IMG/VR virus record: IMGVR_UViG_3300025889_000082
Coordinates: 41,348 to 105,347 of that record
Reading direction: 5' to 3' (one strand)
DNA: 64,000 bases
Source of the DNA: a virus
Taxonomy: Duplodnaviria; Heunggongvirae; Uroviricota; Caudoviricetes
The position numbers were made by a program, and so were the translations under genes. How positions within the stretch are numbered: position 1 is the first letter of the stretch; every line of letters begins with the position of its first letter. Positions 1,333-23,744 of this stretch are shown here, in pieces. Under the pieces are notes generated by a model. That model had not been told where the DNA came from, did not search any database, and saw only the letters and a program-made list of their open reading frames with translations.

Positions 1333-1360
1333 AAAGCCCCTTAATTGGGGCTTTTTTATT
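1333..1360. terminator. bidirectional rho-independent terminator between convergent genes
   Basis: aaagcccc-ttaatt-ggggcttt stem-loop followed by TTTTTTATTT on the + strand. An A-tract precedes it, so it also reads as a terminator on the - strand. Confidence 0.6.
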
Positions 1361-3067: not shown

Positions 3068-3452
3068 ATTTCTGTTTTAATTGTTCACGTCTTTTATTTA
3101 CTTCCTCATATCTATACATGTCAGACTCTACATTACTATGCTCATCTAATGTCAAAAGTATGATATTTTCCTCATCTAATGCAGCTTGAGGGTATTTTTC
3201 TTTTGGTAAAATATGATGAAAGAATGCTGTTGATATTCCACCAACTAGATAATCTCCACTCACTTCAGATAACCTAGGTCTAGTTTTCCATATACGTAGA
3301 AACATATCTCTCATAGGATGTATTTCTGTTATTGGATGTTTCTCAGGTATCTTTACATTAAATCCTTTTTTAGCTGTTAGAGGTTTTCTAGGCTTGTGCT
3401 GAAAACAATATTCTCCATCACATTTCTTACCACAGGTTTTACAAAGACTCAT
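3054..3452 (-). CDS. hypothetical protein with N-terminal Cys4 zinc ribbon
   Basis: MSLCKTCGKKCDGEYCFQH: CxxC…CxxxC knuckles. Function unknown. Confidence 0.35.
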   Translation of the reverse strand: MSLCKTCGKKCDGEYCFQHKPRKPLTAKKGFNVKIPEKHPITEIHPMRDMFLRIWKTRPRLSEVSGDYLVGGISTAFFHHILPKEKYPQAALDEENIILLTLDEHSNVESDMYRYEEVNKRREQLKQKYEIH

Positions 3453-3898
3453 TTCAAACCAGTTGAGCCAAATCCTCCTTCACCTCTTTCTGATTGTTCC
3501 AATTCAGGAACCACATCAAAAGATATAGGAAGAACTTCTTCAAAATAGATTTGTGCCACTCTATCTCCTACACCATAAGGAAACTCTGGTACAGATCCTC
3601 CATTAATAATAGGTGTAAAGATGGCCATCCACTCACCTCTATAGTCTGAGTCAATAACACCATAAGAGTTATTTAACACCCAGTTAAACTTAGTGAGGTT
3701 ACTACGTGGTACTATGATGCCTTTGTAGCCTTTAGGGATTTCAGTTTTGAATCCTAATCCTACACACATCTTGTATCCACCTTTGTCTGTTATGCTATGA
3801 GCATACACATCATAGGCAGCAGCGTGCTCGCTACCCTTAATGGGCATGCGAGCATCTTCTGTTACCTTTTGCAATTTAATCTTCAATGGCTGGTTCAT
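3449..3898 (-). CDS. dut: dUTP pyrophosphatase
   Basis: dUTPase motifs: AAAYDVYA (motif I), PRSNL, GVIDSDYRGE (motif III), and a C-terminal glycine-rich motif V (ERGEGGFGSTG). 149 aa. Confidence 0.85.
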   Translation of the reverse strand: MNQPLKIKLQKVTEDARMPIKGSEHAAAYDVYAHSITDKGGYKMCVGLGFKTEIPKGYKGIIVPRSNLTKFNWVLNNSYGVIDSDYRGEWMAIFTPIINGGSVPEFPYGVGDRVAQIYFEEVLPISFDVVPELEQSERGEGGFGSTGLK

Positions 3899-10654: not shown

Positions 10655-12124
10655 TTAGTCAATTATTACAATTCTTTTAGATATTTCTTGCTTTATTTCA
10701 TCAAGACTCTTAACAATTGCATAAACTTCTACAGCAGAAAGAGCTGGTAAATTGAAATCATACTTCTTAGCTTCCTGTGTGAAACCATTCTTAGCTTTCC
10801 ATTCTAAGTCTTCTAGCTCACGTACAGCATAAGAGTCATCCAATTGTAATGTGTCAAAGTCTAAATCATGTAAGATTTCTGTAGCTTCTTCACGTGGCAC
10901 AGTCATAATTGGTAAATACTCATAGCATCTACCCTTAGACTCACCAATACCAACCACCTTCATAGGATTGATAAGGACAATAACAGATGTGTCACCACAA
11001 CCTACATAATGAATCTCATTACTAGTGAAGTGTAAGCCCTCAGCTCCACAGTCATCAGTATTCCAACGACATGCTTCCATAGGCATATTTACCACTCTAC
11101 CAATTCTGATGTCAAATGTTCTTGTGTGAGCATCTGTAAATCTGTTCTCAGCTCTGTTAGGTAAGTCAAGATATAATTCAGTTAAGTTACCAATGTTCTC
11201 ACCATGGTCAACTGTATCCATAACATAACCATCACCACTACAATCTGGACAATCAGTATCTTCATCACACTCTGGATCAATTCCTGAACCATCACAATAT
11301 TCACATCTTTCAAGTTTAGTTAAGTTCTCATTGTGAACTAACTTATATGTACCATCCTTCTGTAAGAATATAGTGTAGTCATTAGGACTCTTCTTCCAAA
11401 CAGCCTTCACCTTATTATATGCATTAGACACAAAGTGTACCAATTCATTAGAGCCATGCAATGTAACTACATTTCTCAAAGCTACAAAGAAGCCCTGTTT
11501 AGTAATTTTGAAGCTATTCTTCTTCAAGAAGTTAAATAACTTATCTGCCACTTCAGCTCTTGGATTCAAGCAACACCACATAAAGAATCTATGTAAGGCA
11601 TTGAACTCATCACTGTTAGTGCCATTATGTCTACCTACCACTTCTAGGAATTCTTCTACTAGCAATGGAGGTAAGCTTCTGTTAATACCTTTTAGATATA
11701 AAGAACCATTCTTCATCTCAAACTGTTCCAATGTAGCTAGATATTCAGCACCTCTTTGAATTGCTTTGGCCTTCTCATATTCAGCTTCTGCTTTTCTTCT
11801 CTCCTCTCTAACATCAGGAGAGCTTACTAAATCAAGCAAACATGCTTCAGATGTACAACCTCTAGCAAGGTTGAAGTCATCAGATGTTGCTGGAGACTTA
11901 GTGATAATACTACCATCATTCATTACAATAGTCAATGTGTCATTAACCATCTTGATATTCATGTAAGGCTTTTCTACCATTGCTGTAGTGTAGCTACTAG
12001 TAGTTGAAGAGGGAACTTGCCCCTCTTCATTACCTAATTCATTAAAAGCTTGGTCTATTTTGTTTTCAACCACCTTTTCAATAGTGCGTTCAATAGCACC
12101 CTTAAACCATTTTAAACTTAGCAT
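10655..12124 (-). CDS. hypothetical protein with Cys/Asp-rich metal-binding cluster
   Basis: 489 aa. CEYCDGSGIDPECDEDTDCPDCSGDG cluster. Immediately downstream of the Hsp90-like gene. Confidence 0.4.
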   Translation of the reverse strand: MLSLKWFKGAIERTIEKVVENKIDQAFNELGNEEGQVPSSTTSSYTTAMVEKPYMNIKMVNDTLTIVMNDGSIITKSPATSDDFNLARGCTSEACLLDLVSSPDVREERRKAEAEYEKAKAIQRGAEYLATLEQFEMKNGSLYLKGINRSLPPLLVEEFLEVVGRHNGTNSDEFNALHRFFMWCCLNPRAEVADKLFNFLKKNSFKITKQGFFVALRNVVTLHGSNELVHFVSNAYNKVKAVWKKSPNDYTIFLQKDGTYKLVHNENLTKLERCEYCDGSGIDPECDEDTDCPDCSGDGYVMDTVDHGENIGNLTELYLDLPNRAENRFTDAHTRTFDIRIGRVVNMPMEACRWNTDDCGAEGLHFTSNEIHYVGCGDTSVIVLINPMKVVGIGESKGRCYEYLPIMTVPREEATEILHDLDFDTLQLDDSYAVRELEDLEWKAKNGFTQEAKKYDFNLPALSAVEVYAIVKSLDEIKQEISKRIVIID

Positions 12125-12134
12125 GTTTTCTGTT

Positions 12135-14513
12135 TTAAATTGTTTCTAATTCTGTAATTGTGTCTTGTGTTAATGTCTCCTCTAAAGGGGCATCTTCGTT
12201 CATCTTTGGATAGAAAGATAAGTTAACCTTCTGTTTGTGATATTTAAACAAATCAGCAATCATTGTATTTAACTTCTCTTCTCTTGGGCTATCACTACTT
12301 ATATAACCTGGAATGTGACTACATAGTACATCAAGGAAAGGTAATTTCTCTAGTAATTCTTTCACCTCAATAAGAGTTGGATAGATTTCTAAATCAACAA
12401 ACTTGTTTTCAATAGCAAAGTTTACTAATGTAAGCTCTTGTTCTGTACCAGTTCTTGTAATAGGATTTGTTGACAGATAAACATTTAAGCGTCTCATCTT
12501 TTCAACAAGATCTTCTGTGACATATGCTAAACGTTCCATTCTATCAAACACTCTAGCATTATCTTTTACAAAACGTGCTATGATTAAACTAGTAACCATT
12601 CTAATAAATGGTTTGTTCTTCCCTTCCATAAATTTATGTATGTTTATCCAGTTATGTAATTCAGCCTTCTCTAAGTTAGTATAAGATGTGTTAGATACAA
12701 TACCAAATCTCACCTGTCTTTTAAAGGTGGGATATAGTCTGTCTAATTCCTCACGATGTTCTTCTGTGCCATACACAGTTAACTTTGTATGTTTGTACAA
12801 CTCGTCCATCTTGAATGTATTAGGAACAAACTTACACGTTTGTCCACTAACCCACACTTGTAACTCAGTGGCTATCTTTACAGAGATTTCTCCTGCAAGT
12901 CTCACTTTCTTCTGACCAGTTACTACTGCAGCAGACATCACCTTAGCACGCTTAGCTTTCTGCTCAGCTATCCATGTCTCAGGAATCTCTATAGCATCTG
13001 CATCAATAAACTTATCAGTGAACATCTTAAGCAACTTCTGGAATTCCTGGATGATTACTCTCCATTCACTCTTAGGATAGTTTCTAAGCTCTAAGATTCT
13101 ATAATAAGTATCATAACCTGATTGGTCATCATAAGCTCCTAATGGAAATGCTTTTTTAAACTTAATAAAGTTGATAGTTTTATGATTAAATCCTAATAAA
13201 GCTCTTAGATAGTTCTTCTTACGTACACCTAATTGCTCAGAGAACTTATATACAATACCAGATTCACCAAATCTTTCACCAGCTAACATATGGTAATTGA
13301 AGTCAGCCCAATAGCCCTTTGCTTCAGTGAATTTACCATTGTTATATCTATATTTCAAATCCCATTCACCAAACATATATTCTGGTAACTTTGTAGCTAC
13401 ACGTTCTAAGTCTAGCTTCTCAATACCAGTGATTTTTGGCTTTTTAACAGGAGTTGTTGCATAGTTTAATAAATCATCAATTGTCACTCTTGCATTCTTA
13501 TCTGCATTTGGAGAAAAGAATATAGGAATAGACTTCTGTCTGTTTCTATAGCTATTTAATACAGACACTGGATCATCACTATCAGAGATGGATTCATTGT
13601 ATTTATCCATAAACACATTAGCTACAGCTTCAAGCTTCTTAAGAATCACTTCTTTAGCTTCCTTGGTATATCTAATAGCCTCTCTATTTGGTGTAGGGAA
13701 CAATCCATCACTTAGACTGAATCTAAGAGCAATAGGAAGAGCAATGTTTTTGATACCAAGCTTCTCCCAATCAATAGGATAGCTTACATTATCTAAACAC
13801 ATGTGCATATAGCCAGTTGTAGCCATACTAGAGAACTGAAAATGTTCTGTTCTTACAATAACAAAGCTGTTATCTATAGATCCTGCAATAGATGCATCTA
13901 CATCAAAATACACACTCTCAAAATAAGCTAATTGCTCTTGAATCTTTCTCTTGAAGTTGTGTCTGTCATAATATGTAACTGGTACAATCACCTTAACACC
14001 ATTTCTTTCTTCTGTTGGCTTTTCATACAACAAGTCAATAGTGTTTGTGTCTTCACCTTCGTACATCATATACTTACGTTCCATGCCATCCTTTCTAGCT
14101 ACAAAATAGAAGCTAGAAGAATAAGCTAATGGGGCTTTGAAGCCCAAACCCATCATACCTAATTCTGTGTTGCTGTCACGCTTTGTTGACTTACCATACT
14201 TACTGATGATATTGCGTACATCATCTGCATCTAAGCCAATACCAAAATCTTCAACAGCAAATTCATATGTATCAGACTTTGCTGACCTTTTAAAACTCAC
14301 TATAATAGGGTCTGTGGTTCCTGCTCTCCTGTGAGAATCTAATGCATTGCTTGCACATTCTCTAACAGTTGAGCCTATTGCATCTGAATATAAATTCTTA
14401 CTTAACATCTGCATCAATACCTGTGCAGAATCTAAGTCTAGGGACATTTTCACTGATTCATGTGATTCTCCCTCTTGCAAAATGTGTGCTTCTGTCTGTT
14501 TTTCTAAAATCAT
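12135..14513 (-). CDS. GHKL-superfamily ATPase, Hsp90 (HtpG)-like
   Basis: Bergerat-fold motifs are present. N-box is RECASNALD (Hsp90 ELISNASDA). G1 box is EDFGIGL (DNGIGM). G2 box is GMMGLGFKAPLAYSSSFYFVA (GQFGVGFYSAFIVAD). The preceding helix LMQMLSKNLYSD matches Hsp90 LLHLMIHSLYSN. 792 aa. Confidence 0.6.
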   Translation of the reverse strand: MILEKQTEAHILQEGESHESVKMSLDLDSAQVLMQMLSKNLYSDAIGSTVRECASNALDSHRRAGTTDPIIVSFKRSAKSDTYEFAVEDFGIGLDADDVRNIISKYGKSTKRDSNTELGMMGLGFKAPLAYSSSFYFVARKDGMERKYMMYEGEDTNTIDLLYEKPTEERNGVKVIVPVTYYDRHNFKRKIQEQLAYFESVYFDVDASIAGSIDNSFVIVRTEHFQFSSMATTGYMHMCLDNVSYPIDWEKLGIKNIALPIALRFSLSDGLFPTPNREAIRYTKEAKEVILKKLEAVANVFMDKYNESISDSDDPVSVLNSYRNRQKSIPIFFSPNADKNARVTIDDLLNYATTPVKKPKITGIEKLDLERVATKLPEYMFGEWDLKYRYNNGKFTEAKGYWADFNYHMLAGERFGESGIVYKFSEQLGVRKKNYLRALLGFNHKTINFIKFKKAFPLGAYDDQSGYDTYYRILELRNYPKSEWRVIIQEFQKLLKMFTDKFIDADAIEIPETWIAEQKAKRAKVMSAAVVTGQKKVRLAGEISVKIATELQVWVSGQTCKFVPNTFKMDELYKHTKLTVYGTEEHREELDRLYPTFKRQVRFGIVSNTSYTNLEKAELHNWINIHKFMEGKNKPFIRMVTSLIIARFVKDNARVFDRMERLAYVTEDLVEKMRRLNVYLSTNPITRTGTEQELTLVNFAIENKFVDLEIYPTLIEVKELLEKLPFLDVLCSHIPGYISSDSPREEKLNTMIADLFKYHKQKVNLSFYPKMNEDAPLEETLTQDTITELETI

Positions 14514-14516
14514 GTG

Positions 14517-14876
14517 TTAGTAGTTTACTGTAATATTAAATTGTGCTAGTATTTCTTTTGATTTCTGTAAGTCATCTATCATCTTTGGATCTGTAATATT
14601 ATCTCTGTTTAACTTTATAATCCTTGTATCTCTTGGAGTGTTTATAAAATCCTTCCAGATACCACCTAATCTTAATGGACCATTCTTTTCTTTTTCTTCA
14701 GGAGTCAGTTTATCATAACGCTCTTGTGTATATACAGGAGAAGATGGATGATAAAATTGCACTGTACCACCTCTACCTCTAGCAAAGTATATACCTACTG
14801 TGAAGTCATTGCCATTAGCTACAGCAATAAGATCCCCCTGGTGGATATCTCCACCAATTTTTGAATTTGGAAACAT
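14517..14876 (-). CDS. hypothetical protein
   Basis: 119-aa ORF. Confidence 0.4.
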   Translation of the reverse strand: MFPNSKIGGDIHQGDLIAVANGNDFTVGIYFARGRGGTVQFYHPSSPVYTQERYDKLTPEEKEKNGPLRLGGIWKDFINTPRDTRIIKLNRDNITDPKMIDDLQKSKEILAQFNITVNY

Positions 14877-14887
14877 AAATAATTGTT

Positions 14888-15604
14888 TTAGAAAGGAGTG
14901 TCCATTAACCAGATAATCTCTGTGTTGTTGGTTTCCTTTAGTAATTTATTAACTTTTGTAAATGTACCTTCTGTATCCCAGTCATCTTGCTTATATGATG
15001 CACTTGCTGGGTGAGACAATGTAAATGTCCATGTGAATGGAGCTACATACTTTTCATATCTAGCTGCGTCTTTACCTAAGAATATGATAGGAGCCATTTT
15101 AGTTGCTAGGACCTCTTCTAATAAATACTTAGTGAATGGTTCCCATAGAGCAATATGGCTACCTGCCTTGTTTATTTCTGTAGTCAAAGCAGCATTATAC
15201 AACAGTACACCTTGTTTAGCCAGAAATGATACATCTGGAGTTCTTTCACAAGTTACACATAACCCATTATAGAATTCCTTTTCTACACCATCATAGAACT
15301 TAGTTAGTGAAGGTTGTAATATGTTTGTTGTAGAACAGCCCATTAATAAGCCATCAGCTACAAATTGTCCATTCTTTGTAGAATGATAAGGACACATGCC
15401 CATCATTACCACCTGTACATCTTCATAGGGTGTCTCATAGAAGCACCTGAATACATTTTGAGATAGAGGAGCAATCTGCTTACCTCTTTGACTCTCAAAC
15501 TTTAAATGTTTATATATGTTATCACACTCCTTACTCTCTATAAATGGTTGCATCCATCTATGCCAAGAAGGGTGGAATTGATCTTTGAATTTATCCCAAT
15601 TCAT
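14888..15604 (-). CDS. family-1 uracil-DNA glycosylase homolog with altered catalytic motif
   Basis: Colinear with E. coli Ung. [32 protein letters not shown] aligns to [45 protein letters not shown] aligns to [22 protein letters not shown] aligns to APHPSPLSA. GQD is replaced by GMC. Confidence 0.65.
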   Translation of the reverse strand: [238 protein letters not shown]

Positions 15605-16605
15605 ATTAATTGTTTACTCTTTAAATAATCTTCTATAGCTTGCATGCCATGAGCTTTGGCAAGATCAGCCCAATCTTTAATCCCTTCAGCTAGATACTTA
15701 CGTGGGACGTTAGTATATTCAAAGTCAAACATCTCTGTAATCTGCTTGGAGTTTTGTACACCTACATCATCTGCATCAAATGATAGGATCTGCTTGTCAG
15801 AGTTTGCTTTCAAATACTCCACATTCTCATGGGAGAAGCAACCTAGTCCTTCATTCTGTACAGCACAACTGCAGGGGAATAGCTTCTTCATTACCATGTA
15901 GTCCTTCTTGGACTTATTGATAAATGCTACGCTGCAGTTCTTGATGTTCTCTTTACCATCCATTGCTGTGATAGGTACATTGTTAGGCATCCATTTCTTC
16001 TTCTTGTCAGCAAATGGTCTATATATCTTCCAATACTGTCCCTCATATAGATAACCAAACCTGAGCTCTGTATCTAGTATGGGAAACTTTTGCTTGTTAA
16101 GATAGACTTCTTTGATAGAATAGATGTTGTTATCTCTTAAGTCCTGGATATCCTGGTGATACATGTTCCAATAAGCTAGTTCTTCTTGTGTGAACTTCCT
16201 CACCTTCACTTGTATAAGAGAATATCTCTTTTCTATCTCAGGTTGTTTATACTCAGAAATAATCTTTTTATATTCCCCTGTCATCACACCTGTAGATAGA
16301 CCCAAGCCAAAGTCTCTATCTACCATCTTCAAAGCTTCACTAGTACTAGGAAGATGATGTAGCATTTGTACAAAGTTGAAGCAATCTCCACGCTTGCTGG
16401 TATCAGCATAGTCTATAAACATTAAATAACCCATCTTATTACCAATCATAAAAGATGGATTGTTCTCATGCCTAAATGGAGAATATGTCACTCTATTAAT
16501 CTTCCAATCATGATTAGGCATGTAATATCTAAAGATGTCATACTCAGAGATTCTGCTTAGAATAGCCTCAATAGATAGTTTTGTTTTTCTTTCTCCTGTA
16601 ATCAT
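15601..16605 (-). CDS. DnaG-like DNA primase (zinc-ribbon-like N-domain plus Toprim); start reassigned to MITGERK
   Basis: YSPFRHENNPSFMIG matches the DnaG zinc-binding-domain signature CPFHxExTPSF, but Cys ligands are substituted. ILSFDADDVGVQ is a Toprim DxD motif. The track start at 16632 lies inside the upstream terminator. Confidence 0.5.
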   Translation of the reverse strand: MITGERKTKLSIEAILSRISEYDIFRYYMPNHDWKINRVTYSPFRHENNPSFMIGNKMGYLMFIDYADTSKRGDCFNFVQMLHHLPSTSEALKMVDRDFGLGLSTGVMTGEYKKIISEYKQPEIEKRYSLIQVKVRKFTQEELAYWNMYHQDIQDLRDNNIYSIKEVYLNKQKFPILDTELRFGYLYEGQYWKIYRPFADKKKKWMPNNVPITAMDGKENIKNCSVAFINKSKKDYMVMKKLFPCSCAVQNEGLGCFSHENVEYLKANSDKQILSFDADDVGVQNSKQITEMFDFEYTNVPRKYLAEGIKDWADLAKAHGMQAIEDYLKSKQLI

Positions 16606-16619
16606 AATGCAAATGTAAT

Positions 16620-16644
16620 GAAAAAGCCCCATAGAAATGGGGCT
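16620..16644 (-). terminator. rho-independent terminator (- strand)
   Basis: agcccc-atagaaat-ggggct stem followed on the - strand by TTTTT. Confidence 0.5.
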
Positions 16645-16667: not shown

Positions 16668-17543
16668 TTAATAATCACTATCATCTTCTTCAATCACCTT
16701 GTCAGATGCTACTAAATTATCTTCAGAATTGTAGTCTCTCAACTCTTTGAATGTGTAATAGTCTTTACAACCATACTCACCCACTACGTTTAATACAAAA
16801 CGCTCATGAGCTTTCAACTCTTTGTTAGACTTGCTACGTAATGCACTCACTGATTCAGCTCTATTATAATCTACCAATCTGAATGCTTTGATGCTATATG
16901 CAGGTAAGAATGCTTTGTTATATACATTCTGGAATTCCTTAATACCATCAGCTTTCTCTTGTGTAGAAATAGTTGCTAAGGCTACAATATTGTTAGCCCA
17001 TTCACCATTGATTTGCTCTTTGATTTCTTTAACATTACCCTTAATCAACTTGTTGAATTCTAATTGTAATGTAGATTTCTTACTGCTGAAATCAATGTTG
17101 CTTAACCATGAGCGTAAGAAGTTATATAAATCTTCTTCACCTACAAATGCTACACGATATTCTCTTTCTTTGAACCAACTAGGAAGATTGTTCTCACTGT
17201 CAGCCCATGTACAACGTCCTACATTATTAATGTATTGTAACTTTGTACCATCATTATTTTCTCTCTCTTTATTCTCAATAAAGAAAGTTAACTTAAACTT
17301 ATCTTGTGTCTTTACTTCTTCTAACCAAAAGTCTAAACGTAATCTAGCATTACCATCTTTACTAGTACCTAAATACTCTGTAGCTTTGCTATCTTCTTTT
17401 AACTGTCTTCCCAATACATCAGCATATTCTTCTGCTGTAGGGTTAACTGCAATCACTTTTGCTTCAAATAAGCCAATCTTTTTAGGAAAGTCTTTGTCTT
17501 CAAATACTGGGTTTTGTCTTTTTTCTCCTCCAATGTTACTCAT
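16668..17543 (-). CDS. hypothetical protein with acidic C-terminal tail (possible SSB-like protein)
   Basis: 291 aa ending …VIEEDDSDY. An acidic tail and a position next to a Sak4-like ATPase suggest a phage SSB. No OB motif recognised. Confidence 0.3.
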   Translation of the reverse strand: MSNIGGEKRQNPVFEDKDFPKKIGLFEAKVIAVNPTAEEYADVLGRQLKEDSKATEYLGTSKDGNARLRLDFWLEEVKTQDKFKLTFFIENKERENNDGTKLQYINNVGRCTWADSENNLPSWFKEREYRVAFVGEEDLYNFLRSWLSNIDFSSKKSTLQLEFNKLIKGNVKEIKEQINGEWANNIVALATISTQEKADGIKEFQNVYNKAFLPAYSIKAFRLVDYNRAESVSALRSKSNKELKAHERFVLNVVGEYGCKDYYTFKELRDYNSEDNLVASDKVIEEDDSDY

Positions 17544-17564
17544 TTTTTCTGGATTTAATTATTA

Positions 17565-18236
17565 TTAATTGTAATATTCATCTATTGCGTTTACTACCTC
17601 TTGTAAGTTATTAGGTATCTTAGTTTCTGCAAACATTCCATCAGGACTCTTTGCTGGATACTTCTTATATCTATTGGTTACAAAATTGTATGTTGTGCTA
17701 CCATCTTTGTTCTCTTCTACGTGAGTGTATAAACAGATTGTTAATAATCCTTCAAGAACAATTTGGTTGTCAATTAACTTACCTGCTGTCTTGATTTTAT
17801 ACCCTACAATCTCTCCACCATCTTCAATGGTTTCAGGATGTGTAAAATAGAACACTTTTAAATCATCACGTAGTTTTCTAGCTTCTCTAAATAGTTCTGC
17901 CATTTCTTTAGCCATGATGCTGAACTTGGTAAAACCAACTTCTGTAGCTTTTGCTAACATATTGAAGCCCATGATGTAGTTAGAGTCTTCAATAATAATG
18001 TTCTTGATGTGTGGTGCTTTCTCTGAGATAGTCTTTAACAGACGTGTAATCTCAGTTGCATCATCTACTTCCTTGTAATTTTTACTCTCTGAATTGTACA
18101 ATTTCTCTGCTCCCTTGAAAGGTAATTCTTTCTTAGCAACGTTGATAATGTAAGTTTCTTTTGGGTCTAAATGTTTCACTGAAGTTGACTTGCCAGTCCC
18201 TGTAGGACCAACAATTCCAATTAATTTGCTTGCCAT
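17565..18236 (-). CDS. Sak4-like RecA-fold ATPase (phage recombination mediator); start reassigned to MASKLIG
   Basis: Walker A GIVGPTGTGKST near the N-terminus. Walker B hhhhED (NIIIEDSNYIM). About 220 aa, typical of Sak4/AAA_24 proteins. Confidence 0.5.
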   Translation of the reverse strand: MASKLIGIVGPTGTGKSTSVKHLDPKETYIINVAKKELPFKGAEKLYNSESKNYKEVDDATEITRLLKTISEKAPHIKNIIIEDSNYIMGFNMLAKATEVGFTKFSIMAKEMAELFREARKLRDDLKVFYFTHPETIEDGGEIVGYKIKTAGKLIDNQIVLEGLLTICLYTHVEENKDGSTTYNFVTNRYKKYPAKSPDGMFAETKIPNNLQEVVNAIDEYYN

Positions 18237-18249
18237 GTTTTTACTGATT

Positions 18250-18453
18250 TTATTTCTCCAAAGATACATCAATATCTTGAGATTTCAAAATATTTTTTAC
18301 AGGTTTTAACATGTCTGGATTAGCAATAATTTCATCATAAAACTTCTCTGCAGATTCTTTATGAGCAAACCATTTAATACCTGAACCATCTGCTCTTACA
18401 GCATACATTGTACCACTTGAGATGCTTGTTTCTTCTGTTAATTCTATTGTCAT
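18250..18453 (-). CDS. hypothetical protein
   Basis: 67-aa ORF coupled to the helicase gene. Confidence 0.35.
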   Translation of the reverse strand: MTIELTEETSISSGTMYAVRADGSGIKWFAHKESAEKFYDEIIANPDMLKPVKNILKSQDIDVSLEK

Positions 18454-19526
18454 TTGTATGTAATTTTATCTTTATCAAAAAATTCTAGTGCTTTTCTAAG
18501 CCACTTTCGTTCCACTTCTTCTGCAGAACATACAATGTATATGTGTGCTTTCTTATCAGGAGTGTTATACTCCATAGCCATGCATCTATTAATCTTCTGT
18601 GCAAGATTCTCTGCATTGCTATCAAAATAGTTGATTATCACTCTGTTAAGAGGTTTATATGTAACACCAGTGTTACCAATCTTTACTACAGCAAGGTGAT
18701 TACCCTTACCTGCAGCAAAGTCTTCAAACACCTGCTTATCTCCTGCTTTGCTATGATAGACAGGAATTCCTAGTTCATCTGCTATGGCTGTGACACCACA
18801 GAATACTAGAACACGTTCATCTTTATGCTTAGCCAATAGAGCTCTTGTTTTCTCCATCTTAGCCACACTATTCTGTATAATACGCATTCTAGCTAAACGT
18901 AGGAACATAGCATTCTGTCCTTTTAAGTCTAACTGATTAATAGCCCAGCCATAGGCATCAAACTGTTTCTTCTCAGTCTTCCATTTACCCTTATAGTTGT
19001 TCTTTCTCTTATCATCAAGCATAACATGCACTACAGTGATTTCATAGTCTGTAATAACACCTTCTTTAATTGCTTGTTCTATGGGATATGTAGCTAAGAC
19101 AGGTAGTTTTAGTTCTAAGCCTAATGTTTCTTCTGTCAGTCTAGATAAAGTACCAGTTAAGCCCAACATGTGGGTGTATTTTAACTCCTTAACTGCTTCT
19201 ATCTGAGCTTCTGACAACAAATGTATCTCATCAAGCACAACCAAGTCAAAATGAGTCTCTGTGTGCTTTTTGATAGACAAATGTGTTGTATATGTGATGT
19301 TAGGATTCTTGTACTTTCTAATCTTGAAGTCCTCTTCCCACGCAGCCTTAATTTTTAAGTCTGGATATGCTATCAGTATGTTTATACCTTTAGGTAACTT
19401 TTCTAATATATTGATTGTAGTGTAAATCTTACCAAATCTAGGGCACAGATTAAGTATACCAAATTTATCATTTTCCAACCATACATCAGCAAACTCTTGC
19501 TGTCTTTTATCTCTTATTGATGCCAT
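18450..19526 (-). CDS. SF2 (DEAH-box) helicase
   Basis: Walker A-like LCPRFGKIYT. Motif II VLDEIHLL (DEIH). Motif III LGLTGT. Confidence 0.65.
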   Translation of the reverse strand: MASIRDKRQQEFADVWLENDKFGILNLCPRFGKIYTTINILEKLPKGINILIAYPDLKIKAAWEEDFKIRKYKNPNITYTTHLSIKKHTETHFDLVVLDEIHLLSEAQIEAVKELKYTHMLGLTGTLSRLTEETLGLELKLPVLATYPIEQAIKEGVITDYEITVVHVMLDDKRKNNYKGKWKTEKKQFDAYGWAINQLDLKGQNAMFLRLARMRIIQNSVAKMEKTRALLAKHKDERVLVFCGVTAIADELGIPVYHSKAGDKQVFEDFAAGKGNHLAVVKIGNTGVTYKPLNRVIINYFDSNAENLAQKINRCMAMEYNTPDKKAHIYIVCSAEEVERKWLRKALEFFDKDKITYK

Positions 19527-19693
19527 ATTCTACTGTTGTAGTGAATGACCAAAATAGCCACTCAAAATTAATTGCTACATAAGACTCAGCGTCCACTCTA
19601 TTAAAAATACTGATTGTGGGTAGTAATACTATCTGCCACCAGTAATCTCTAGATGTGGGCAATGTGTTATGAGCATGTGCTTTTATATTCATA

Positions 19694-20755
19694 TTAAGTG
19701 TTTATAAAAAATGTTTTATTTGTCACCTCAAAATAGGTGTTGTCTGTCATATATTTAACCTTTGGTAGCTCTTTGAACATACCTATTTGACCTAAGAAAC
19801 CTAGACCAATTCTTACATCATCTTCACCATAAGAATTCTTAATGAGTCTCAATGATCTGAAATACTTTGCACCAAACTCATCTCTAAGCTTAACTAGGTC
19901 ATAACCACTAGGGTCTGCCACCTTATAACGCATAGGATCAAATAGTGCTAGGACTACATCAGCATCATTTTGTGTTTGTGAACTCTCAGCAAAATCTTCT
20001 AGCTGTGGTTCTACATCACCATTCTTAATTCTTAGTGGGTTACTAATATCTCTGTTGAACTGGCTAACAACTACAGGGCTATATCCAAACATGTCTCTGA
20101 CATATCTAAGCTCATCAGACATCTTATCAATTGTCTGCTTCTTAGTAGGATAGTCCTTAGTAGGTTTAAGTAGACCTATATGGTCAATAACAACAATAGT
20201 TATTTCATTCTCATTGTTAGGAATGTATTTCTTGTTGTATTGATCTACATCTTCCATTACACCATTAGCCATTGCATGTTCTTTTAGATGCTTAGCTATG
20301 CCAATAGGGTTCTCTGGTCCATCAATAATGGTGATTACATCTTTCATCTGATCCATGTAATCTTCATACATAAGGAACAAATCATGTTCATCTGCAGTCA
20401 TCTTATCAGTCCAGCCTAATAGCTTTGGTACAGGAATGATTACACCATGGTCTAGAAATATCTTTCTACTTACCCATTTAGCATATTTGTATGTTCTACT
20501 ACGCTCCATGGATCTATATATGATACGCAGTTTCATTGGTGGATTCTTATGACTGATAAACCAATCAAAAGGATTCAAGACATAAGCATCATCTAGAAAG
20601 CTAGTCTTACCAGAACCAGTTAATCCACCTATCAGCGTGTACATAGACTTTCTGATACCAATATATCTGTTCAAACGCTCAAAGCCCATAGGTATACCAT
20701 TGTTTCTACCATCCAGGCCAGCTTGAACTTCTCGTCTTAAATCTTCAAAACTCAT
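19694..20755 (-). CDS. DnaB-like replicative helicase (RecA-fold C-domain)
   Basis: LIGGLTGSGKTSFLDDAYVLNP (Walker A / H1). IVVIDHIGLL (Walker B / H2). 353 aa. Confidence 0.6.
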   Translation of the reverse strand: MSFEDLRREVQAGLDGRNNGIPMGFERLNRYIGIRKSMYTLIGGLTGSGKTSFLDDAYVLNPFDWFISHKNPPMKLRIIYRSMERSRTYKYAKWVSRKIFLDHGVIIPVPKLLGWTDKMTADEHDLFLMYEDYMDQMKDVITIIDGPENPIGIAKHLKEHAMANGVMEDVDQYNKKYIPNNENEITIVVIDHIGLLKPTKDYPTKKQTIDKMSDELRYVRDMFGYSPVVVSQFNRDISNPLRIKNGDVEPQLEDFAESSQTQNDADVVLALFDPMRYKVADPSGYDLVKLRDEFGAKYFRSLRLIKNSYGEDDVRIGLGFLGQIGMFKELPKVKYMTDNTYFEVTNKTFFINT

Positions 20756-21378
20756 ATGTCCATTCCTTTAATTGGTTCATGTGATTCTTTGATGGTAACA
20801 CCTTGATCAATTAGCTCTATGTAGTTTTGGAATGAACGCTGATTCAAATAGGTGAGACTTCCTTGCATGTATGTAAGTCTGTTTGTACCTGTTTTGATAG
20901 AGCTTTCTTTCTTTTGTAGCACTTCATATTCTAATGCTGCTATGAGCTGATCAACTGTATACTCACCTTCAGCTAGAATAGCATCTAGCTTTGCTTGGCA
21001 GTCATCTCTATGAACACGCAATGTTCTACCACCTGCAAAACTTTTACCCTTATAAGTAAAGATATCAGTTCCTGGAAAGGCAGCCCACCATTTCTCAAAC
21101 TCAGCATGTGTCTGTGTTTTCTTGATAATCTTAGTGGTCTTAGCACGTGTGTTCATGAAATCTAATAGATTTCTACCTAGCACTGTAATCTTAAATTGCT
21201 CAGACACTAATCCTTTTCTACGTAAGGATTGACATAATGCATCCACCTTTGGTCCTCCCTCAGCTAATGTTTTAATGTCAAATTCTTCTTCTATTAATTT
21301 AAGAAGAAATACCATGTCTAATGTATATCCATCTTTGAGGAGTTGCTCAAAATGGTAAGGGGTTATCTTGATGTTCAT
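20752..21378 (-). CDS. hypothetical protein
   Basis: 208-aa ORF coupled to the helicase gene; possible loader or accessory protein (inference). Confidence 0.4.
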   Translation of the reverse strand: MNIKITPYHFEQLLKDGYTLDMVFLLKLIEEEFDIKTLAEGGPKVDALCQSLRRKGLVSEQFKITVLGRNLLDFMNTRAKTTKIIKKTQTHAEFEKWWAAFPGTDIFTYKGKSFAGGRTLRVHRDDCQAKLDAILAEGEYTVDQLIAALEYEVLQKKESSIKTGTNRLTYMQGSLTYLNQRSFQNYIELIDQGVTIKESHEPIKGMDI

Positions 21379-21598
21379 GTTCTCTGTTTAGTATTTTGTC
21401 CTTATCAATTACCACTATCTGAGCAGGCTGTTTCATTGCTAATCTAAACTCCTCTTCAAGCAGGTGTTGTGTCTCCTGCAAATATACTAAATCTTTAAGA
21501 GATTCTCTCTCCCAATCTTCATTTATTTTCAAATTTTGGTCTCTCATTTTCATAGTCTTTATTGTTCCAAAAATAAGAACATGTACTAGTGACAACAC
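21347..21598 (-). CDS. hypothetical protein
   Basis: 83-aa ORF. The start may be the internal MKMRDQ; overlaps the next ORF. Confidence 0.3.
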   Translation of the reverse strand: MLSLVHVLIFGTIKTMKMRDQNLKINEDWERESLKDLVYLQETQHLLEEEFRLAMKQPAQIVVIDKDKILNREHEHQDNPLPF

Positions 21599-21752
21599 CT
21601 AATCCATTGTTGTTCTCATCTGTTATCATATTCATCTTATATGGAGGGTCTACAAAATATGATTGACCTAGTTCCTCAGCTTTAGCTGTATATCTGTGAC
21701 AGTGTAGTCTCAAAGGACAACTGCCTCCTGGGCACATTGAAATGTCTGGCAT
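21519..21752 (-). CDS. hypothetical Cys-rich protein
   Basis: MPDISMCPGGSCPLRLHCHRY: CxxxC…C.H cluster. Confidence 0.3.
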   Translation of the reverse strand: MPDISMCPGGSCPLRLHCHRYTAKAEELGQSYFVDPPYKMNMITDENNNGLGVVTSTCSYFWNNKDYENERPKFENK

Positions 21753-21753
21753 A

Positions 21754-22023
21754 TTACTTATGTTTATTAATTGTATCAGTTAATGTCTTCTTATCTATTA
21801 TACTAACCTGTCTAAAGACTTCTTTACCATCTTTAAACATAATAGTTGTAGGAATGCTTCTAACTGCATGATCTGTAAGCAATTGTGATTCATTATCAGC
21901 ATCTACCATTTGTACATCTATTTCATCTTTAAACTTATCAGTAACTTCTATAAATACTGGTTTGTATACTTTACATGGACCACACCATGGTGCACTAAAG
22001 TACATCACTTTCAATTTGCTCAT
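21754..22023 (-). CDS. trxA: thioredoxin
   Basis: MYFSAPWCGPCKVYKP is the canonical WCGPC active site. 89 aa. Confidence 0.8.
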   Translation of the reverse strand: MSKLKVMYFSAPWCGPCKVYKPVFIEVTDKFKDEIDVQMVDADNESQLLTDHAVRSIPTTIMFKDGKEVFRQVSIIDKKTLTDTINKHK

Positions 22024-22276
22024 TGTCTTGATTTTTGTGATTAATATATATTCTCAATGTCTTATGTGTATCTTCAAGCATTGCATATACTTTGGATCTA
22101 CTGTCCCAATTGTAATACTTGAGCACACCATTTTCTATTATCTCCACTTGTGTAACAAGTGTAGTATTAAGAACGTTCTTTGATGGAAGTTTAGACTTTC
22201 CATTACCAGATATATCTCTGGTGCTCATTGGTTTATTTCCCATAACTATTCTGCTGCCCAACCAAAGAACACCCAT
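21995..22276 (-). CDS. hypothetical protein
   Basis: 93-aa ORF. Confidence 0.35.
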   Translation of the reverse strand: MGVLWLGSRIVMGNKPMSTRDISGNGKSKLPSKNVLNTTLVTQVEIIENGVLKYYNWDSRSKVYAMLEDTHKTLRIYINHKNQDNEQIESDVL

Positions 22277-22800
22277 CTACCTGGTCTTTCTGTGGTGGAT
22301 TTCTTATATGTAATTTTAGCTACTACAGGCTTTGGTCCAACTAATACTTTACGCATTATAACTGTAGTGGGAACTTGATGTTCTTCTGTATAAGCTCTAG
22401 CCATTTTAACAGCATCACCTTTCTGAGGACAAGAAGCAATAACTCTACCATCACCATAATACTCTTCCACTTCATATTTAAGTATCCATTTCTTAGTACC
22501 TGGTGTAACTATGTGCTCCACTTGAGACTTAGTTTTGTTCTTATTAGCAACAGGCTCTTGAATACATATAGCAGCACAATCTCTTTTCTTAAGTTTGTCT
22601 ATTTGCATGTCTATGTATTCTTGCAAAGATTTACCACTTCTTTTAAAATTAGCTGTAAGATCTGCACACTGGTGTGTAGTGCTAATTGTACCATTATATG
22701 AATCATTTCCTGATTCTTCTATTGCCATGTCTCTAGCAGTATTATATGCGTCTTGTAAAGACTTACCATGTCTATTTATTTCAAACCAACTTGCTCCCAT
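22246..22800 (-). CDS. hypothetical protein
   Basis: 184-aa ORF. Confidence 0.4.
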   Translation of the reverse strand: MGASWFEINRHGKSLQDAYNTARDMAIEESGNDSYNGTISTTHQCADLTANFKRSGKSLQEYIDMQIDKLKKRDCAAICIQEPVANKNKTKSQVEHIVTPGTKKWILKYEVEEYYGDGRVIASCPQKGDAVKMARAYTEEHQVPTTVIMRKVLVGPKPVVAKITYKKSTTERPGRWVFFGWAAE

Positions 22801-22806
22801 AATTAG

Positions 22807-23187
22807 TTATTTTAATACTGTTTTAATTGCTTTTTTCATTACATCCAATCTTGCTTGTTCTCTCATTTTGTCTGTAACTTCATTTTCCTTTCCTGTATAA
22901 TGACTAATCCAAAGTCTTTTACTTGAACCAAGGGTTAAAGAACCTCTTGCATGTATATAAACACTATCAGGATATCTTTTGTTTGTTACATTTTGGAAAT
23001 TAATTTTCATATCAAGAACTCGTTTGTACGATAGAAGATTATCCATTATACGTAATGTATCTTCAGTGGACATTGGTTTTTTAAGTTCTTTCTGTAGTTT
23101 ATTAATTTCTATTGTAAAAATACCCTTATTGTCTATATACTTATCCTCAATCATATCTTTATAATCTCGCAATATGTTTATTGACAT
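22807..23187 (-). CDS. hypothetical protein
   Basis: 126-aa ORF. Confidence 0.4.
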   Translation of the reverse strand: MSINILRDYKDMIEDKYIDNKGIFTIEINKLQKELKKPMSTEDTLRIMDNLLSYKRVLDMKINFQNVTNKRYPDSVYIHARGSLTLGSSKRLWISHYTGKENEVTDKMREQARLDVMKKAIKTVLK

Positions 23188-23189
23188 AA

Positions 23190-23309
23190 TTATTTGTTTA
23201 AATATACATAAATTTCATGCATAATGCTAGCAATTAATGTTAATATTATACTAATAATAGCTACAAATACAAAAGCCCTCTCTTGAGGGCTATGTTTATT
23301 ATTTTTCAT
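23190..23309 (-). CDS. small single-pass membrane protein (start reassigned to MKNNKH)
   Basis: AFVFVAIISIILTLIASIM hydrophobic helix. The track's longer version overlaps the 23314 ORF by 120 nt. Confidence 0.25.
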   Translation of the reverse strand: MKNNKHSPQERAFVFVAIISIILTLIASIMHEIYVYLNK

Positions 23310-23313
23310 ATGT

Positions 23314-23568
23314 TTAATCTTGTATTCTAAGGCCAAATTGTAAATCAAACCAATTAAATGTTTCTTTGGCCTTATTAGTGTTAAACTTAAATGTCTTTTT
23401 GAGAAGAGGAATAGCATATGCTTTGAACTTCTCATGTTGTTCTGTGGTCATAGTCCATTCATGAAACCAGTCAGGATTCTGCATGGCTTCAAACATTGTT
23501 TTATTAACTATCTTTAATTGAACATTCACTAAGTGCTCAGCTATGTTAAACCTATTAATCTTTCCCAT
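23314..23568 (-). CDS. hypothetical protein
   Basis: 84-aa ORF. Start is 1 nt from the upstream stop. Confidence 0.4.
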   Translation of the reverse strand: MGKINRFNIAEHLVNVQLKIVNKTMFEAMQNPDWFHEWTMTTEQHEKFKAYAIPLLKKTFKFNTNKAKETFNWFDLQFGLRIQD

Positions 23569-23744
23569 TAGATTCTTTTAATTATGTAGTCATTGAACTT
23601 ATCAATATCAAAGCTACTGTTAATAGATTCAAAGAACTTCTTATATGCCCAATAGTAATCTGATGCTGTTGGATAAACATGTCCATTAGCTTGACAGTCT
23701 TCTACTACTAAGTCTGCAGCTATTTTAAAATGTGATTTGCCCAT
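23568..23744 (-). CDS. small hypothetical protein (58 aa) missed by the ORF track
   Basis: MGKSHFKIAADLVVEDCQANGHVYPT… Its ATG overlaps the polymerase stop (TAATG) and its stop overlaps the next ATG, which indicates translational coupling. Confidence 0.3.
   Translation of the reverse strand: MGKSHFKIAADLVVEDCQANGHVYPTASDYYWAYKKFFESINSSFDIDKFNDYIIKRI

What the first reader, a model, noticed from the sequence alone, without database searches (positions are those of the whole stretch)
14888..15604. Uracil-DNA glycosylase homolog with the catalytic GQDPYH motif mutated to GMCPYH
The protein is colinear with family-1 UNG; the substrate-pocket, Leu-loop-region and HPSPLS-like (HPASAS) motifs are all present. 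The water-activating Asp and neighbouring Gln are replaced (D to C, Q to M). This parallels poxvirus D4, a UDG-fold processivity factor. It could be an inactive uracil-binding replisome subunit, a glycosylase with altered chemistry or specificity, or a decoy against host UDG inhibitors. It sits between the Hsp90-like and primase genes.
Basis: partly seen in the sequence, partly recalled or inferred. Interest (0 to 1): 0.5.

Follow-up and report, generated by a model that had tools for sequence, protein, structure and literature searches.

The report
Phage uracil-DNA glycosylase lacking catalytic aspartate
An uncultivated phage carries a well-conserved copy of the DNA-repair enzyme uracil-DNA glycosylase in which the residue that normally does the chemistry has been swapped for cysteine, so it probably still recognises uracil in DNA but cuts it out slowly or not at all, and likely helps phage DNA replication instead.

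Summary
Window 14888-15604 (minus strand) encodes a 238-aa protein with a confident family-1 UNG fold (pLDDT 96.6; TM 0.83-0.88 to human and bacterial UNG). Its GMCPYH aligns without gaps to GQDPYH, so Cys71 replaces the water-activating Asp and Met70 the adjacent Gln. It is not a sequencing error: of 76 related phage genes, 67 have Cys (TGT 45, TGC 22), 8 have Ala and 1 has Ser, and dN/dS is about 0.1. The uracil-pocket residues (Pro72, Tyr73, His74, Asn137, His198) are invariant. The Ala subclade is still under purifying selection (dN/dS about 0.15), so the thiol is not essential, which argues against new Cys chemistry. Across the wider phage UNG-like family, Asp is inferred as ancestral and has been lost several times to C, S or A. 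The intercalating Leu is also missing (HPASAS). The gene sits in a conserved replication module. Best reading: a uracil-recognising protein with little or no excision activity that acts as a replication accessory, a natural counterpart of the engineered Q-to-L/D-to-N EBV UNG mutant that still supports replication. A slow but real glycosylase cannot be excluded. The poxvirus D4 analogy is only functional, because D4 keeps its Asp. The "Hsp90-like" neighbour is an rIIA homolog. This is a new variant of a known kind, of moderate interest.

The parts
14888..15604 (-). UNG-fold (family-1-like) protein, 238 aa, lacking the catalytic Asp
   Evidence: ORF; Pfam UDG; phrog_12143, unknown function, 1e-32; PDB UNG hits; AF2 pLDDT 96.6; Foldseek TM 0.83-0.88 to UNGs
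15383..15400 (-). Motif A (water-activating loop) GMCPYH. Met70 replaces Gln144 and Cys71 (TGT, 15392-15394) replaces Asp145. Pro72, Tyr73 and His74 are kept.
   Evidence: Gapless alignment to GQDPYH. Codon 71 in 76 relatives: TGT 45, TGC 22, GCT 8, TCC 1. G69, P72, Y73 and H74 are invariant.
15308..15322 (-). Pro-rich loop equivalent ILQPS (human 165-PPPPS-169); Gln97 and Pro98 are invariant in the clade
   Evidence: Alignments; invariant list
15194..15205 (-). Uracil-recognition motif LLYN (human 201-LLLN-204); Asn137 is invariant
15071..15076 (-). Gly-Ser loop equivalent, here Gly177-Lys178 (invariant in the clade)
14996..15013 (-). Motif B (minor-groove intercalation loop) HPASAS. His198 and Pro199 are kept; the intercalating Leu272 position is Ala202.
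   Evidence: H198, P199, S201 and A202 are invariant
15601..16632 (-). DNA primase gene immediately upstream. Its stop overlaps the UDG-like start (ATGA).
   Evidence: phrog_12622, 6e-31; sequence. The adjacency is not conserved: relatives have 0-2.3 kb inserted.
14517..14876 (-). 119-aa ORF of unknown function between the UDG-like gene and rIIA; present in most but not all relatives
12135..14513 (-). rIIA homolog with a GHKL (HATPase_c) ATPase domain.
   Evidence: phrog_612, 9e-58; Pfam HATPase_c_3
10655..12124 (-). rIIB homolog
   Evidence: phrog_609, 6e-16
16668..25699 (-). Rest of the conserved replication module: orf291 (acidic C-terminal tail, possible SSB), Sak4-like ATPase (17565-18272), SF2 helicase (18450-19526), DnaB-like helicase (19694-20755) and DNA polymerase (23744-25699)
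   Evidence: synteny in 76 relatives
3449..3898 (-). dUTPase. The phage limits dUTP, so its DNA is expected to contain thymine, not uracil.
   Evidence: phrog_135, 3e-42

Best explanation
[quoted passage not shown] It has naturally lost the water-activating Asp (now Cys71) and the neighbouring Gln (now Met70). It keeps an intact uracil-specific pocket and intact DNA-binding loops, both under strong purifying selection. It most likely still flips and binds deoxyuridine, probably best in single-stranded or fork DNA because the Leu wedge is also missing. It probably excises uracil very slowly or not at all. It would then act as an accessory of the phage replication machinery, scanning, holding or shielding template uracil and/or tethering the polymerase. 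The precedent is herpesvirus and poxvirus UNGs, whose replication role does not need catalysis. Shown: fold, motif substitutions, selection, dispensability of the thiol, placement in the replication module. Inferred: retained uracil binding, loss or attenuation of excision, and the replisome role.
For: Fold and catalytic column. Not an error, and under selection: 116 of the 120 closest proteins have GMCPYH and 4 have GMAPYH. In 76 phage loci codon 71 is TGT 45, TGC 22, GCT 8 and TCC 1, while G69, P72, Y73, H74, N137, H198 and P199 are 100% conserved despite synonymous variation. Median dN/dS is 0.10. Thiol dispensable: the 8 Ala71 sequences form one clade of three sublineages at 78-87% identity, with dN/dS 0.14-0.16. 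Wider family (150 representatives at 31-57% identity): column 145 is D, C, S, A or E, Asp is inferred as ancestral with several losses, and N204 and H268 stay near-invariant in all classes. Context: the order PolA-DnaB-helicase-Sak4-orf291-primase-...-UDG-like-rIIA-rIIB-exo-RNR is conserved in 76 relatives. Distant Cys-type members also lie in replication or nucleotide-metabolism regions. There is only one UDG-like gene in the window, and a dUTPase is present. Literature: a catalytically dead EBV UNG mutated at these same two positions (Q-to-L, D-to-N) fully restores viral replication (PMC5934625). Human UNG D145N/H268N keeps specific, tight uracil-DNA binding (PMC4756853). UDG domains on phage A-family polymerases sit on the template ahead of the active site, or have been proposed as processivity factors (bioRxiv 10.1101/2025.03.26.645540; PMC3201878).
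Against: There is no biochemical data. His198, the leaving-group-stabilising His268, is strictly conserved, and that is a mainly catalytic residue. UDG families 2, 3 and 5 excise bases without an Asp at this position, so residual or alternative catalysis is plausible. Cys71 co-occurs with His at position 148 in 22 of 24 representatives, which could mean a functional active-site pair and not a dead site. No physical link to the polymerase or primase has been shown, and the tight primase overlap in this window is not conserved. The presence or absence of a sliding clamp cannot be judged from a 64-kb window. I had no model coordinates, so side-chain geometry was not inspected.
Confidence: 0.5

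Rival explanations
1. It is still a genuine uracil-DNA glycosylase. Excision proceeds without the Asp general base. Water would be positioned by His74 and/or a small polar residue at position 71, and catalysis would be driven by His198, Asn137 and the DNA phosphates, as in the slow Asp-less UDG families (MUG/TDG, SMUG, family 5). It would work in phage base-excision repair or in pre-replicative uracil removal.
For: His198, Asn137, Tyr73 and Pro72 are strictly conserved in all Asp-less classes. Columns 145 and 148 are coupled (C with H in 22/24, D with P in 38/54, E with A or S in 11/17), which suggests the site is still shaped by selection. Motif-1 plasticity with retained activity is established for the UDG superfamily (PMC5387724 and general knowledge of families 2-5). 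The phage also encodes a dUTPase, recombinase and exonucleases.
Against: An Ala71 clade is maintained, so no polar group is needed at this position. About half of the Ser-type relatives lack His148 as well. Gln144 and Leu272 were lost at the same time, and engineered changes at each of these positions reduce UNG activity (Q-to-L/D-to-N in EBV UNG, PMC5934625; the L272A human UNG structure 2SSP appears among the hits). The 145/148 coupling may be partly phylogenetic.
Confidence: 0.3
2. Cys71 is a new catalytic nucleophile or redox switch. For example, it could attack C1' or the abasic aldehyde to form a covalent protein-DNA adduct, as UdgX does through a His, or it could make activity redox-dependent.
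For: Cys is the commonest non-Asp residue at this column and is kept through TGT/TGC synonymous change. It is almost always paired with His148. UdgX shows that UDG-fold proteins can evolve covalent uracil-DNA capture (PMC4787834).
Against: Ala71 and Ser71 occur in close relatives with all other sites unchanged and purifying selection maintained. S, C and A interleave on the family tree like a neutral small-residue exchange. No UdgX-like KRRIH loop or Fe-S motif is present.
Confidence: 0.06
3. The pocket has been retuned to another base, for example a modified pyrimidine of the phage's or the host's DNA. The protein would then be a glycosylase or reader for that base and not for uracil.
For: Phe158 is Met, Gln144 is Met and the loop residues are changed. 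A GT2 glycosyltransferase lies in the window.
Against: Tyr73, which excludes 5-substituted pyrimidines, and Asn137, which gives uracil-versus-cytosine specificity, are invariant (their roles are established UNG knowledge). No thymidylate-synthase-like or base-modification enzyme was found in the window.
Confidence: 0.07
4. It is a decoy that soaks up UDG inhibitors, or it is a decaying pseudogene or a sequencing artefact.
For: None beyond the changed motif.
Against: More than 1300 homologs, dN/dS about 0.1, a full-length confident fold and synonymous codon variation at Cys71 all rule out a pseudogene or artefact. UDG inhibitors (Ugi, p56) are phage-encoded, so a phage gains nothing obvious from a decoy against them. 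No inhibitor-like gene was identified nearby.
Confidence: 0.02

Closest known systems
[quoted passage not shown]
   Same: Same fold over the full length (TM 0.83-0.88, rmsd 2.4-3.1 Å), colinear sequence at 22-29% identity, and profile E = 3e-48. It retains Pro146, Tyr147, His148, Asn204, His268 and Pro269.
   Different: It lacks Gln144 and Asp145 (Met-Cys), Phe158 (Met), the Ser of the Gly-Ser loop (Lys), Ser270 and Pro271 (Ala, Ser) and the intercalating Leu272 (Ala). It is encoded by a virus in a replication module.
crAss-like (Crassvirales) and Flavobacterium phage 'UDG' (PhiCrAss001-type, DAC15, FpV4, cr111_1)
   Same: These are the nearest annotated relatives (about 28-35% identity). They are phage-encoded, lie near the primase and replication genes, and share the HPAxxA type of motif B without the Leu.
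   Different: They retain the catalytic Asp (GQDPYP). Cellulophaga phi14:2 instead has GKEPYR and lacks the motif-B His.
Herpesvirus UNG (EBV BKRF3, KSHV) as a structural replisome element
   Same: A viral UNG-fold protein needed for replication independently of catalysis. The engineered dead EBV mutant changes exactly the Gln and Asp of motif A and still rescues replication (PMC5934625).
   Different: The wild-type herpesvirus enzymes are active glycosylases with intact GQDPYH and an extended Leu loop. Here the loss is natural and fixed.
Poxvirus D4/E4 UDG (processivity factor subunit with A20)
   Same: A UDG fold used as a polymerase accessory that sits on the template ahead of the polymerase. 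Motif B is HPAARD, which also lacks the Leu.
   Different: D4 keeps its catalytic Asp (GIDPYP) and is an active glycosylase. It is only a distant relative (profile E about 5e-9 against 1e-48 for cellular UNG). No A20-like partner is known here.
UDG domains fused to phage A-family DNA polymerases (SPO1, T5, SP15-like such as YerA41 and phiLo)
   Same: A phage PolA combined with a UDG-fold module that reads the template ahead of synthesis, or is proposed as a processivity factor (PMC3201878; bioRxiv 10.1101/2025.03.26.645540).
   Different: Those are family-4-type domains fused in cis, and the SP15-like ones are active. Here a family-1-type protein is encoded in trans and lacks the Asp.
UdgX (Mycobacterium smegmatis)
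   Same: A UDG-superfamily protein that recognises uracil in DNA but does not release it (PMC4787834).
   Different: UdgX is family-4-like with an Fe-S cluster, makes a covalent link through the His of a KRRIH loop, and is bacterial. Neither feature is present here.

Membership tests
Family-1 UNG | UNG alpha/beta fold, colinear over the whole catalytic domain | tested here: met
   AF2 pLDDT 96.6. The top 50 Foldseek PDB hits are all UNGs, with TMt 0.76-0.88. Profile E = 3e-48.
Family-1 UNG | Water-activating loop 143-GQDPYH-148 with catalytic Asp145 (motif list from PMC5538708) | tested here: not met
   The loop is GMCPYH, so Gln144 is Met and Asp145 is Cys. This is conserved in the clade.
Family-1 UNG | Pro-rich loop 165-PPPPS-169 | tested here: inconclusive
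   The equivalent is ILQPS. Only the final Pro-Ser is kept, and Gln97 and Pro98 are invariant in the clade.
Family-1 UNG | Uracil-recognition motif 201-LLLN-204 (Asn204), plus Tyr147 | tested here: met
   The motif is LLYN, with Asn137 and Tyr73 invariant in 76 relatives. Phe158 is replaced by Met88.
Family-1 UNG | Gly-Ser loop 246-GS-247 | tested here: not met
   It is Gly177-Lys178, invariant in the clade.
Family-1 UNG | Minor-groove intercalation loop 268-HPSPLS-273 with His268 and Leu272 | tested here: inconclusive
   The loop is HPASAS. His198 and Pro199 are present and invariant, but Leu272 aligns to Ala202. The alignment could be off by one residue, but no bulky residue lies at 271 or 272 either way.
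Family-1 UNG | Uracil excision activity, Ugi-sensitive | not testable with these tools
   This needs an enzyme assay.
Poxvirus D4-type processivity subunit | Specific sequence relationship to D4/E4 and motifs GIDPYP plus HPAARD | tested here: not met
   D4/E4 score only about 5e-9 with the family profile, against 1e-48 for cellular UNG. BLASTP to D4 aligns only residues 132-232 at 28%. D4 keeps its Asp.
Poxvirus D4-type processivity subunit | Binding to a polymerase-bridging partner (A20) and conferring processivity | not testable with these tools
   No A20 homolog was recognised. This needs pull-down and processivity assays.
UdgX-type covalent uracil-DNA binder | Family-4 scaffold with Fe-S cluster and a KRRIH loop (PMC4787834) | tested here: not met
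   The sequence and fold are family-1. No KRRIH motif is present in the 238-aa sequence.
Phage UNG-like family (phrog_12143 and crAss-like 'UDG') | Full-length match to the phage family profile, with HPAxAx-type motif B | tested here: met
   phrog_12143, 1.2e-32, covering residues 8-232. There are 126 representatives at E<1e-30, most of them with HPA-x-A-x.

The most novel reading that the evidence does not exclude
The Asp-less phage UNGs may be natural 'dominant-negative' uracil readers. They would clamp onto deoxyuridine in single-stranded template DNA at the phage fork. This could shield the uracil from the host's UNG, which would otherwise create fork-breaking abasic sites; that would be a protein-level alternative to Ugi or p56. 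Or they could act as a read-ahead sensor that pauses the polymerase or hands the lesion to the phage's recombination proteins (UvsX, Sak4). A still more exotic version is a Cys-His site that captures the sugar covalently.
Probability: 0.2. Interest if true: 0.75.

Novelty: new variant of a known kind. Interest (0 to 1): 0.5.

Why it matters
Viral UNGs in herpesviruses and poxviruses have long been known to have a replication role that can be separated from base excision. That was shown only with engineered mutants of enzymes that are active in nature. This phage family seems to have done the experiment itself. The catalytic Asp, with its neighbouring Gln, has been discarded several times, while the uracil pocket stays frozen under purifying selection in a conserved replication module. 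That gives a natural system of paired Asp-type and Asp-less homologs for asking what a non-excising UNG does at a replication fork. It also flags that more than 1000 metagenomic proteins auto-annotated as 'uracil-DNA glycosylase' may not be efficient glycosylases. Asp-less, uracil-specific binders could also be useful as uracil sensors.

Tried and rejected
(1) Sequencing error or pseudogene: rejected by 120 close homologs, synonymous TGT/TGC codons and dN/dS about 0.1.

(2) A second, canonical UDG in the window that could supply activity: none was found with the family HMM or with E. coli Ung. Only 64 kb of a roughly 110-117 kb genome was searched.

(3) Close nucleotide relatives among sequenced phages: none.

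(4) A cultured relative as an experimental system: Leptolyngbya phage Lbo-JY46 has the nearest TerL and MCP, but it has no UDG-like gene. Cultured FpV4, DAC15 and PhiCrAss001-type phages have the Asp-type.

(5) A specific relationship to poxvirus D4: rejected.

(6) Translational coupling to primase as a conserved feature: rejected, because only 2 of 76 relatives have a zero gap.

(7) Host or cellular origin from genome assemblies: only one 3-kb contig, binned in an Aquiluna MAG, which is uninformative.

(8) The search for related loci with the diverse alignment failed because no conserved stretch was available, so I used the single protein.

(9) Literature searches for natural Asp-less family-1 UNGs in phages found nothing. 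Two searches failed on term format.

(10) Thymidylate synthase, base-modification genes, a sliding clamp or a Ugi-like gene in the window: none recognised.

(11) I could not inspect side-chain geometry because the model coordinates are not exposed.
Full report
OBSERVATION. Residues 69-74 read GMCPYH. The Cys71 codon is TGT, the reverse complement of window 15392-15394. Residues 198-203 read HPASAS. Pfam assigns the UDG superfamily (30.5 bits, cutoff 24.3). PHROGs gives a full-length match to phrog_12143, a family of unknown function (1e-32). Against solved structures the best matches are all family-1 UNGs: Coxiella 3TR7 at 2.5e-16, E. coli at about 1e-11, human at about 3e-8, and poxvirus D4/E4 only at about 1e-3. 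In those alignments [10 protein letters not shown] lies without gaps on [10 protein letters not shown], and HPASAS lies on HPSPLS. An AlphaFold2 model built on a 147-sequence alignment is very confident (pLDDT 96.6, pTM 0.92). Its top 50 Foldseek hits in the PDB are all UNGs, with TM 0.83-0.88 to human, Deinococcus and Coxiella UNG. Its viral neighbours are UNGs of giant viruses, herpesviruses and an entomopoxvirus.

WHAT ELSE IS CHANGED. I mapped the five motifs that define family-1 UNG, as listed in PMC5538708.
- The water-activating loop is GMCPYH, so Gln and Asp are lost while Pro, Tyr and His are kept.
- The Pro-rich loop is ILQPS.
- The uracil-recognition motif is LLYN, so the Asn is kept.
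- The Gly-Ser loop is Gly-Lys.
- The intercalation loop is HPASAS. His and Pro are kept, but the Leu272 position is Ala.
- The uracil-stacking Phe158 is Met88.

NOT AN ERROR, AND UNDER SELECTION. A search of 5.8 billion proteins found 1302 homologs. Of the 120 closest (67-96% identity), 116 have GMCPYH and 4 have GMAPYH. I recovered 76 related genes with their DNA from IMG/VR phage contigs, which come from genomes of about 110-117 kb. Codon 71 is TGT in 45, TGC in 22, GCT (Ala) in 8 and TCC (Ser) in 1. Gly69, Pro72, Tyr73, His74, Asn137, His198 and Pro199 are 100% conserved despite synonymous variation. Median pairwise dN/dS is 0.10. The eight Ala71 sequences form one clade made of three sublineages that have diverged to 78-87% identity, and dN/dS within it is still 0.14-0.16. 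The protein is clearly functional. Its uracil pocket is frozen, and position 71 accepts Cys, Ala or Ser. This is the key result against a Cys-dependent chemistry.

THE WIDER FAMILY. An exhaustive HMMER search of 1.84 billion cluster representatives gave 5948 hits at E<1e-3 and 126 at E<1e-30. Among the best 150 (31-57% identity), Pro146, Tyr147, Asn204, His268 and Pro269 are almost invariant. Motif B is typically HPA-x-A-x, without the Leu. Column 145 is Asp in about 54, Cys in 24, Ser in 24, Glu in 17 and Ala in 4. Column 145 is coupled to columns 144 and 148. Asp goes with Gln144 and Pro148 (GQDPYP, also the motif of mimivirus UNG, and similar to vaccinia GIDPYP). Cys goes with a hydrophobic residue at 144 and with His148 in 22 of 24 sequences. 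Glu goes with Ala or Ser at 148. Ser goes with His in only 11 of 24. On a neighbour-joining tree built without the motif columns, Fitch parsimony infers Asp as ancestral and several independent losses. S, C and A interleave within clades. The tree is noisy, so its counts (up to 10 gains of Cys) are upper bounds. A one-step codon path runs GAT to GCT to TCT to TGT (Asp, Ala, Ser, Cys). Ala, Ser and Cys are all seen at column 145, and GCT and TGT are seen as codons (the single Ser is TCC); the path itself is my inference. The family profile matches cellular UNGs at 1e-48 to 1e-41, herpesvirus UNGs at about 1e-33 and poxvirus D4/E4 at about 5e-9. The family is therefore an offshoot of canonical UNG and not specifically D4-like.

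CONTEXT. An rIIB homolog follows it (10655-12124), and a 119-aa ORF of unknown function lies between rIIA and the UDG-like gene. Upstream lies the primase (15601-16632), whose stop overlaps the UDG-like start (ATGA). Further upstream are a 291-aa ORF with an acidic C-terminal tail, a Sak4-like ATPase, an SF2 helicase, a DnaB-like helicase and a DNA polymerase. A dUTPase (3449-3898), a ribonucleotide reductase, a UvsX-like recombinase and an exonuclease are also present. The gene order PolA-DnaB-helicase-Sak4-orf291-primase-[0-2.3 kb variable insert, often a DUF932 gene]-UDG-like-(orf119)-rIIA-rIIB-exo-RNR is conserved in the 76 relatives. The direct primase overlap is not conserved. More distant Cys-type members (GYCPYH, SYCPYH) also lie next to RNR, RecA-like and DUF932 genes. 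The window has no second UDG-like gene, and I recognised no clamp, thymidylate synthase or base-modification gene.

LINEAGE. The phage has no nucleotide match among sequenced phages. Its terminase is most similar to Leptolyngbya phage Lbo-JY46 (41%), Cellulophaga phi4:1 (32%) and gut crAss-like phages (27-30%). Its capsid protein matches only Lbo-JY46, at 26%. It therefore belongs to an uncultivated lineage distantly related to crAss-like phages. The nearest annotated UDG homologs are crAss-like and Flavobacterium phage 'UDGs' at about 28-35% identity. All those I examined keep the Asp (GQDPYP), except Cellulophaga phi14:2, which has GKEPYR and no motif-B His. Lbo-JY46 has no UDG-like gene.

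MECHANISM. The following points are shown:
- a UNG fold;
- natural, selected loss of Asp145 and Gln144 and of the Leu wedge;
- strict conservation of the residues that give UNG its uracil specificity (Tyr147, Asn204) and its leaving-group stabilisation (His268);
- dispensability of the side chain at position 71 beyond being small;
- residence in a conserved replication module of a phage that also encodes a dUTPase.

From established UNG enzymology, removing the Asp carboxylate costs roughly three to four orders of magnitude in kcat but does not abolish uracil binding. The human D145N/H268N protein is used as a specific uracil sensor (PMC4756853). In EBV, a mutant changed at exactly these two motif positions (Q-to-L, D-to-N) is catalytically dead yet fully restores viral DNA replication (PMC5934625). 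UDG modules associated with phage A-family polymerases contact the template ahead of the active site (bioRxiv 10.1101/2025.03.26.645540), and they were proposed as processivity factors earlier (PMC3201878).

I therefore judge it most likely (about 0.5) that this protein recognises and binds uracil but excises it poorly or not at all, and that it serves the phage replisome. It could act as a tether or processivity aid, as a read-ahead sensor for uracil, or as a shield that keeps host UNG from making abasic sites in single-stranded template. The missing Leu wedge fits a preference for single-stranded or fork DNA, but that is inference.

The main rival (about 0.3) is that it remains a real but slow glycosylase, like the Asp-less UDG families, perhaps with His74 positioning the water. 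The strict conservation of His198 and the Cys-His148 coupling favour this reading. The Ala71 clade, the Ser-type relatives without His148, and the simultaneous loss of Gln144 and Leu272 count against it. Readings based on a Cys nucleophile or redox switch (about 0.06) are weakened by the Ala and Ser variants. A changed base specificity (about 0.07) is weakened by the invariant Tyr73 and Asn137. A decoy, pseudogene or artefact (about 0.02) is effectively excluded.

COMPARISON AND NOVELTY. By fold and descent this is a family-1 UNG derivative. It fails two of the five defining motifs outright, including the catalytic one, and two more are only partly kept, so it should not be annotated as a uracil-DNA glycosylase. 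It works most like the catalysis-independent replication function of herpesvirus and poxvirus UNGs. I found no paper in the searchable library describing natural Asp-less family-1 UNGs in phages. PHROGs lists the family as of unknown function, and IMG labels its members 'uracil-DNA glycosylase'. I rate it a new variant of a known kind, with moderate interest (0.5). The finding is solid, widespread and experimentally tractable, but its likely function has clear precedent.

LIMITS. There is no biochemistry. The family tree is only approximate, so the number of independent Asp losses and the 145/148 coupling are not corrected for phylogeny. Only 64 kb of the genome was visible. No cultured phage carrying the Cys-type was found.

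Noticed in passing
window 10655-14513 (-): An rIIA (792 aa, GHKL ATPase domain) and rIIB (489 aa) homolog pair is embedded in the replication module of a distant crAss-like phage. It is conserved in this position in the related phages whose loci reach that far.
   Followed up: partly
window 16668-17543 (-): A 291-aa ORF with no Pfam or PHROG hit ends in an acidic tail (…EEDDSDY), like SSB or T7 gp2.5 C-termini. It is conserved between the Sak4-like ATPase and the primase, so it may be the phage SSB. E. coli Ung is known to bind the SSB tail (PDB 3UF7 appeared among the hits).
   Followed up: no
window 23744-25699 (-): The 651-aa DNA polymerase matches phrog_1252 strongly (5e-143) but has no Pfam hit at E<=1e-3. 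Its nearest annotated relatives are only 31-33% identical. It is a divergent polymerase clade.
   Followed up: partly
window 1356-2042 (-): A family-2 glycosyltransferase (Pfam PF00535, 1e-11) lies at the end of the early region. Whether it modifies DNA, the host surface or something else is unknown.
   Followed up: no
window 3054-3452 and 10168-10602 (-): Two HNH endonuclease genes are inserted in the nucleotide-metabolism and replication region, probably homing endonucleases. Relatives show variable inserts at several points in the module, for example 0-2.3 kb between primase and the UDG-like gene, often a DUF932 gene.
   Followed up: partly
window 47284-51909 (+): A 1541-aa collagen-like, repeat-rich tail fibre gene has locally raised G+C (0.41 against about 0.35) and many spurious overlapping ORFs on both strands.
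   Followed up: no
window 54885-56135 (+): A DNA repair exonuclease (phrog_704, 4e-45; SbcD/Mre11-like) is located among the structural genes and not in the replication module.
   Followed up: no
window ~31500-31700: The strand switches between the leftward early/replication genes and the rightward structural genes, and the GC and AT skew change sign at the same place. This is a likely divergent promoter or origin region.
   Followed up: no
window 27469-28197 (-): A ParB-like protein (phrog_12305, 4e-16) lies in the early region.
   Followed up: no
L003 (Cellulophaga phage phi14:2) 5980-6690: The annotated 'uracil-DNA glycosylase' of this cultured crAss-like phage has GKEPYR in motif A and EDPIQA in place of HPxxxx, so it lacks the motif-B His. 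It is another family member unlikely to be a standard glycosylase, and it is available in culture.
   Followed up: partly
L094 (record 'Acinetobacter phage MD-2021a', CAKLQH020000011.1) 565-1278: The best tblastn hit in the phage collection is a fully canonical bacterial-type ung (GQDPYH, HPSPLA) on a 108-kb contig. It looks like bacterial sequence filed as phage.
   Followed up: no
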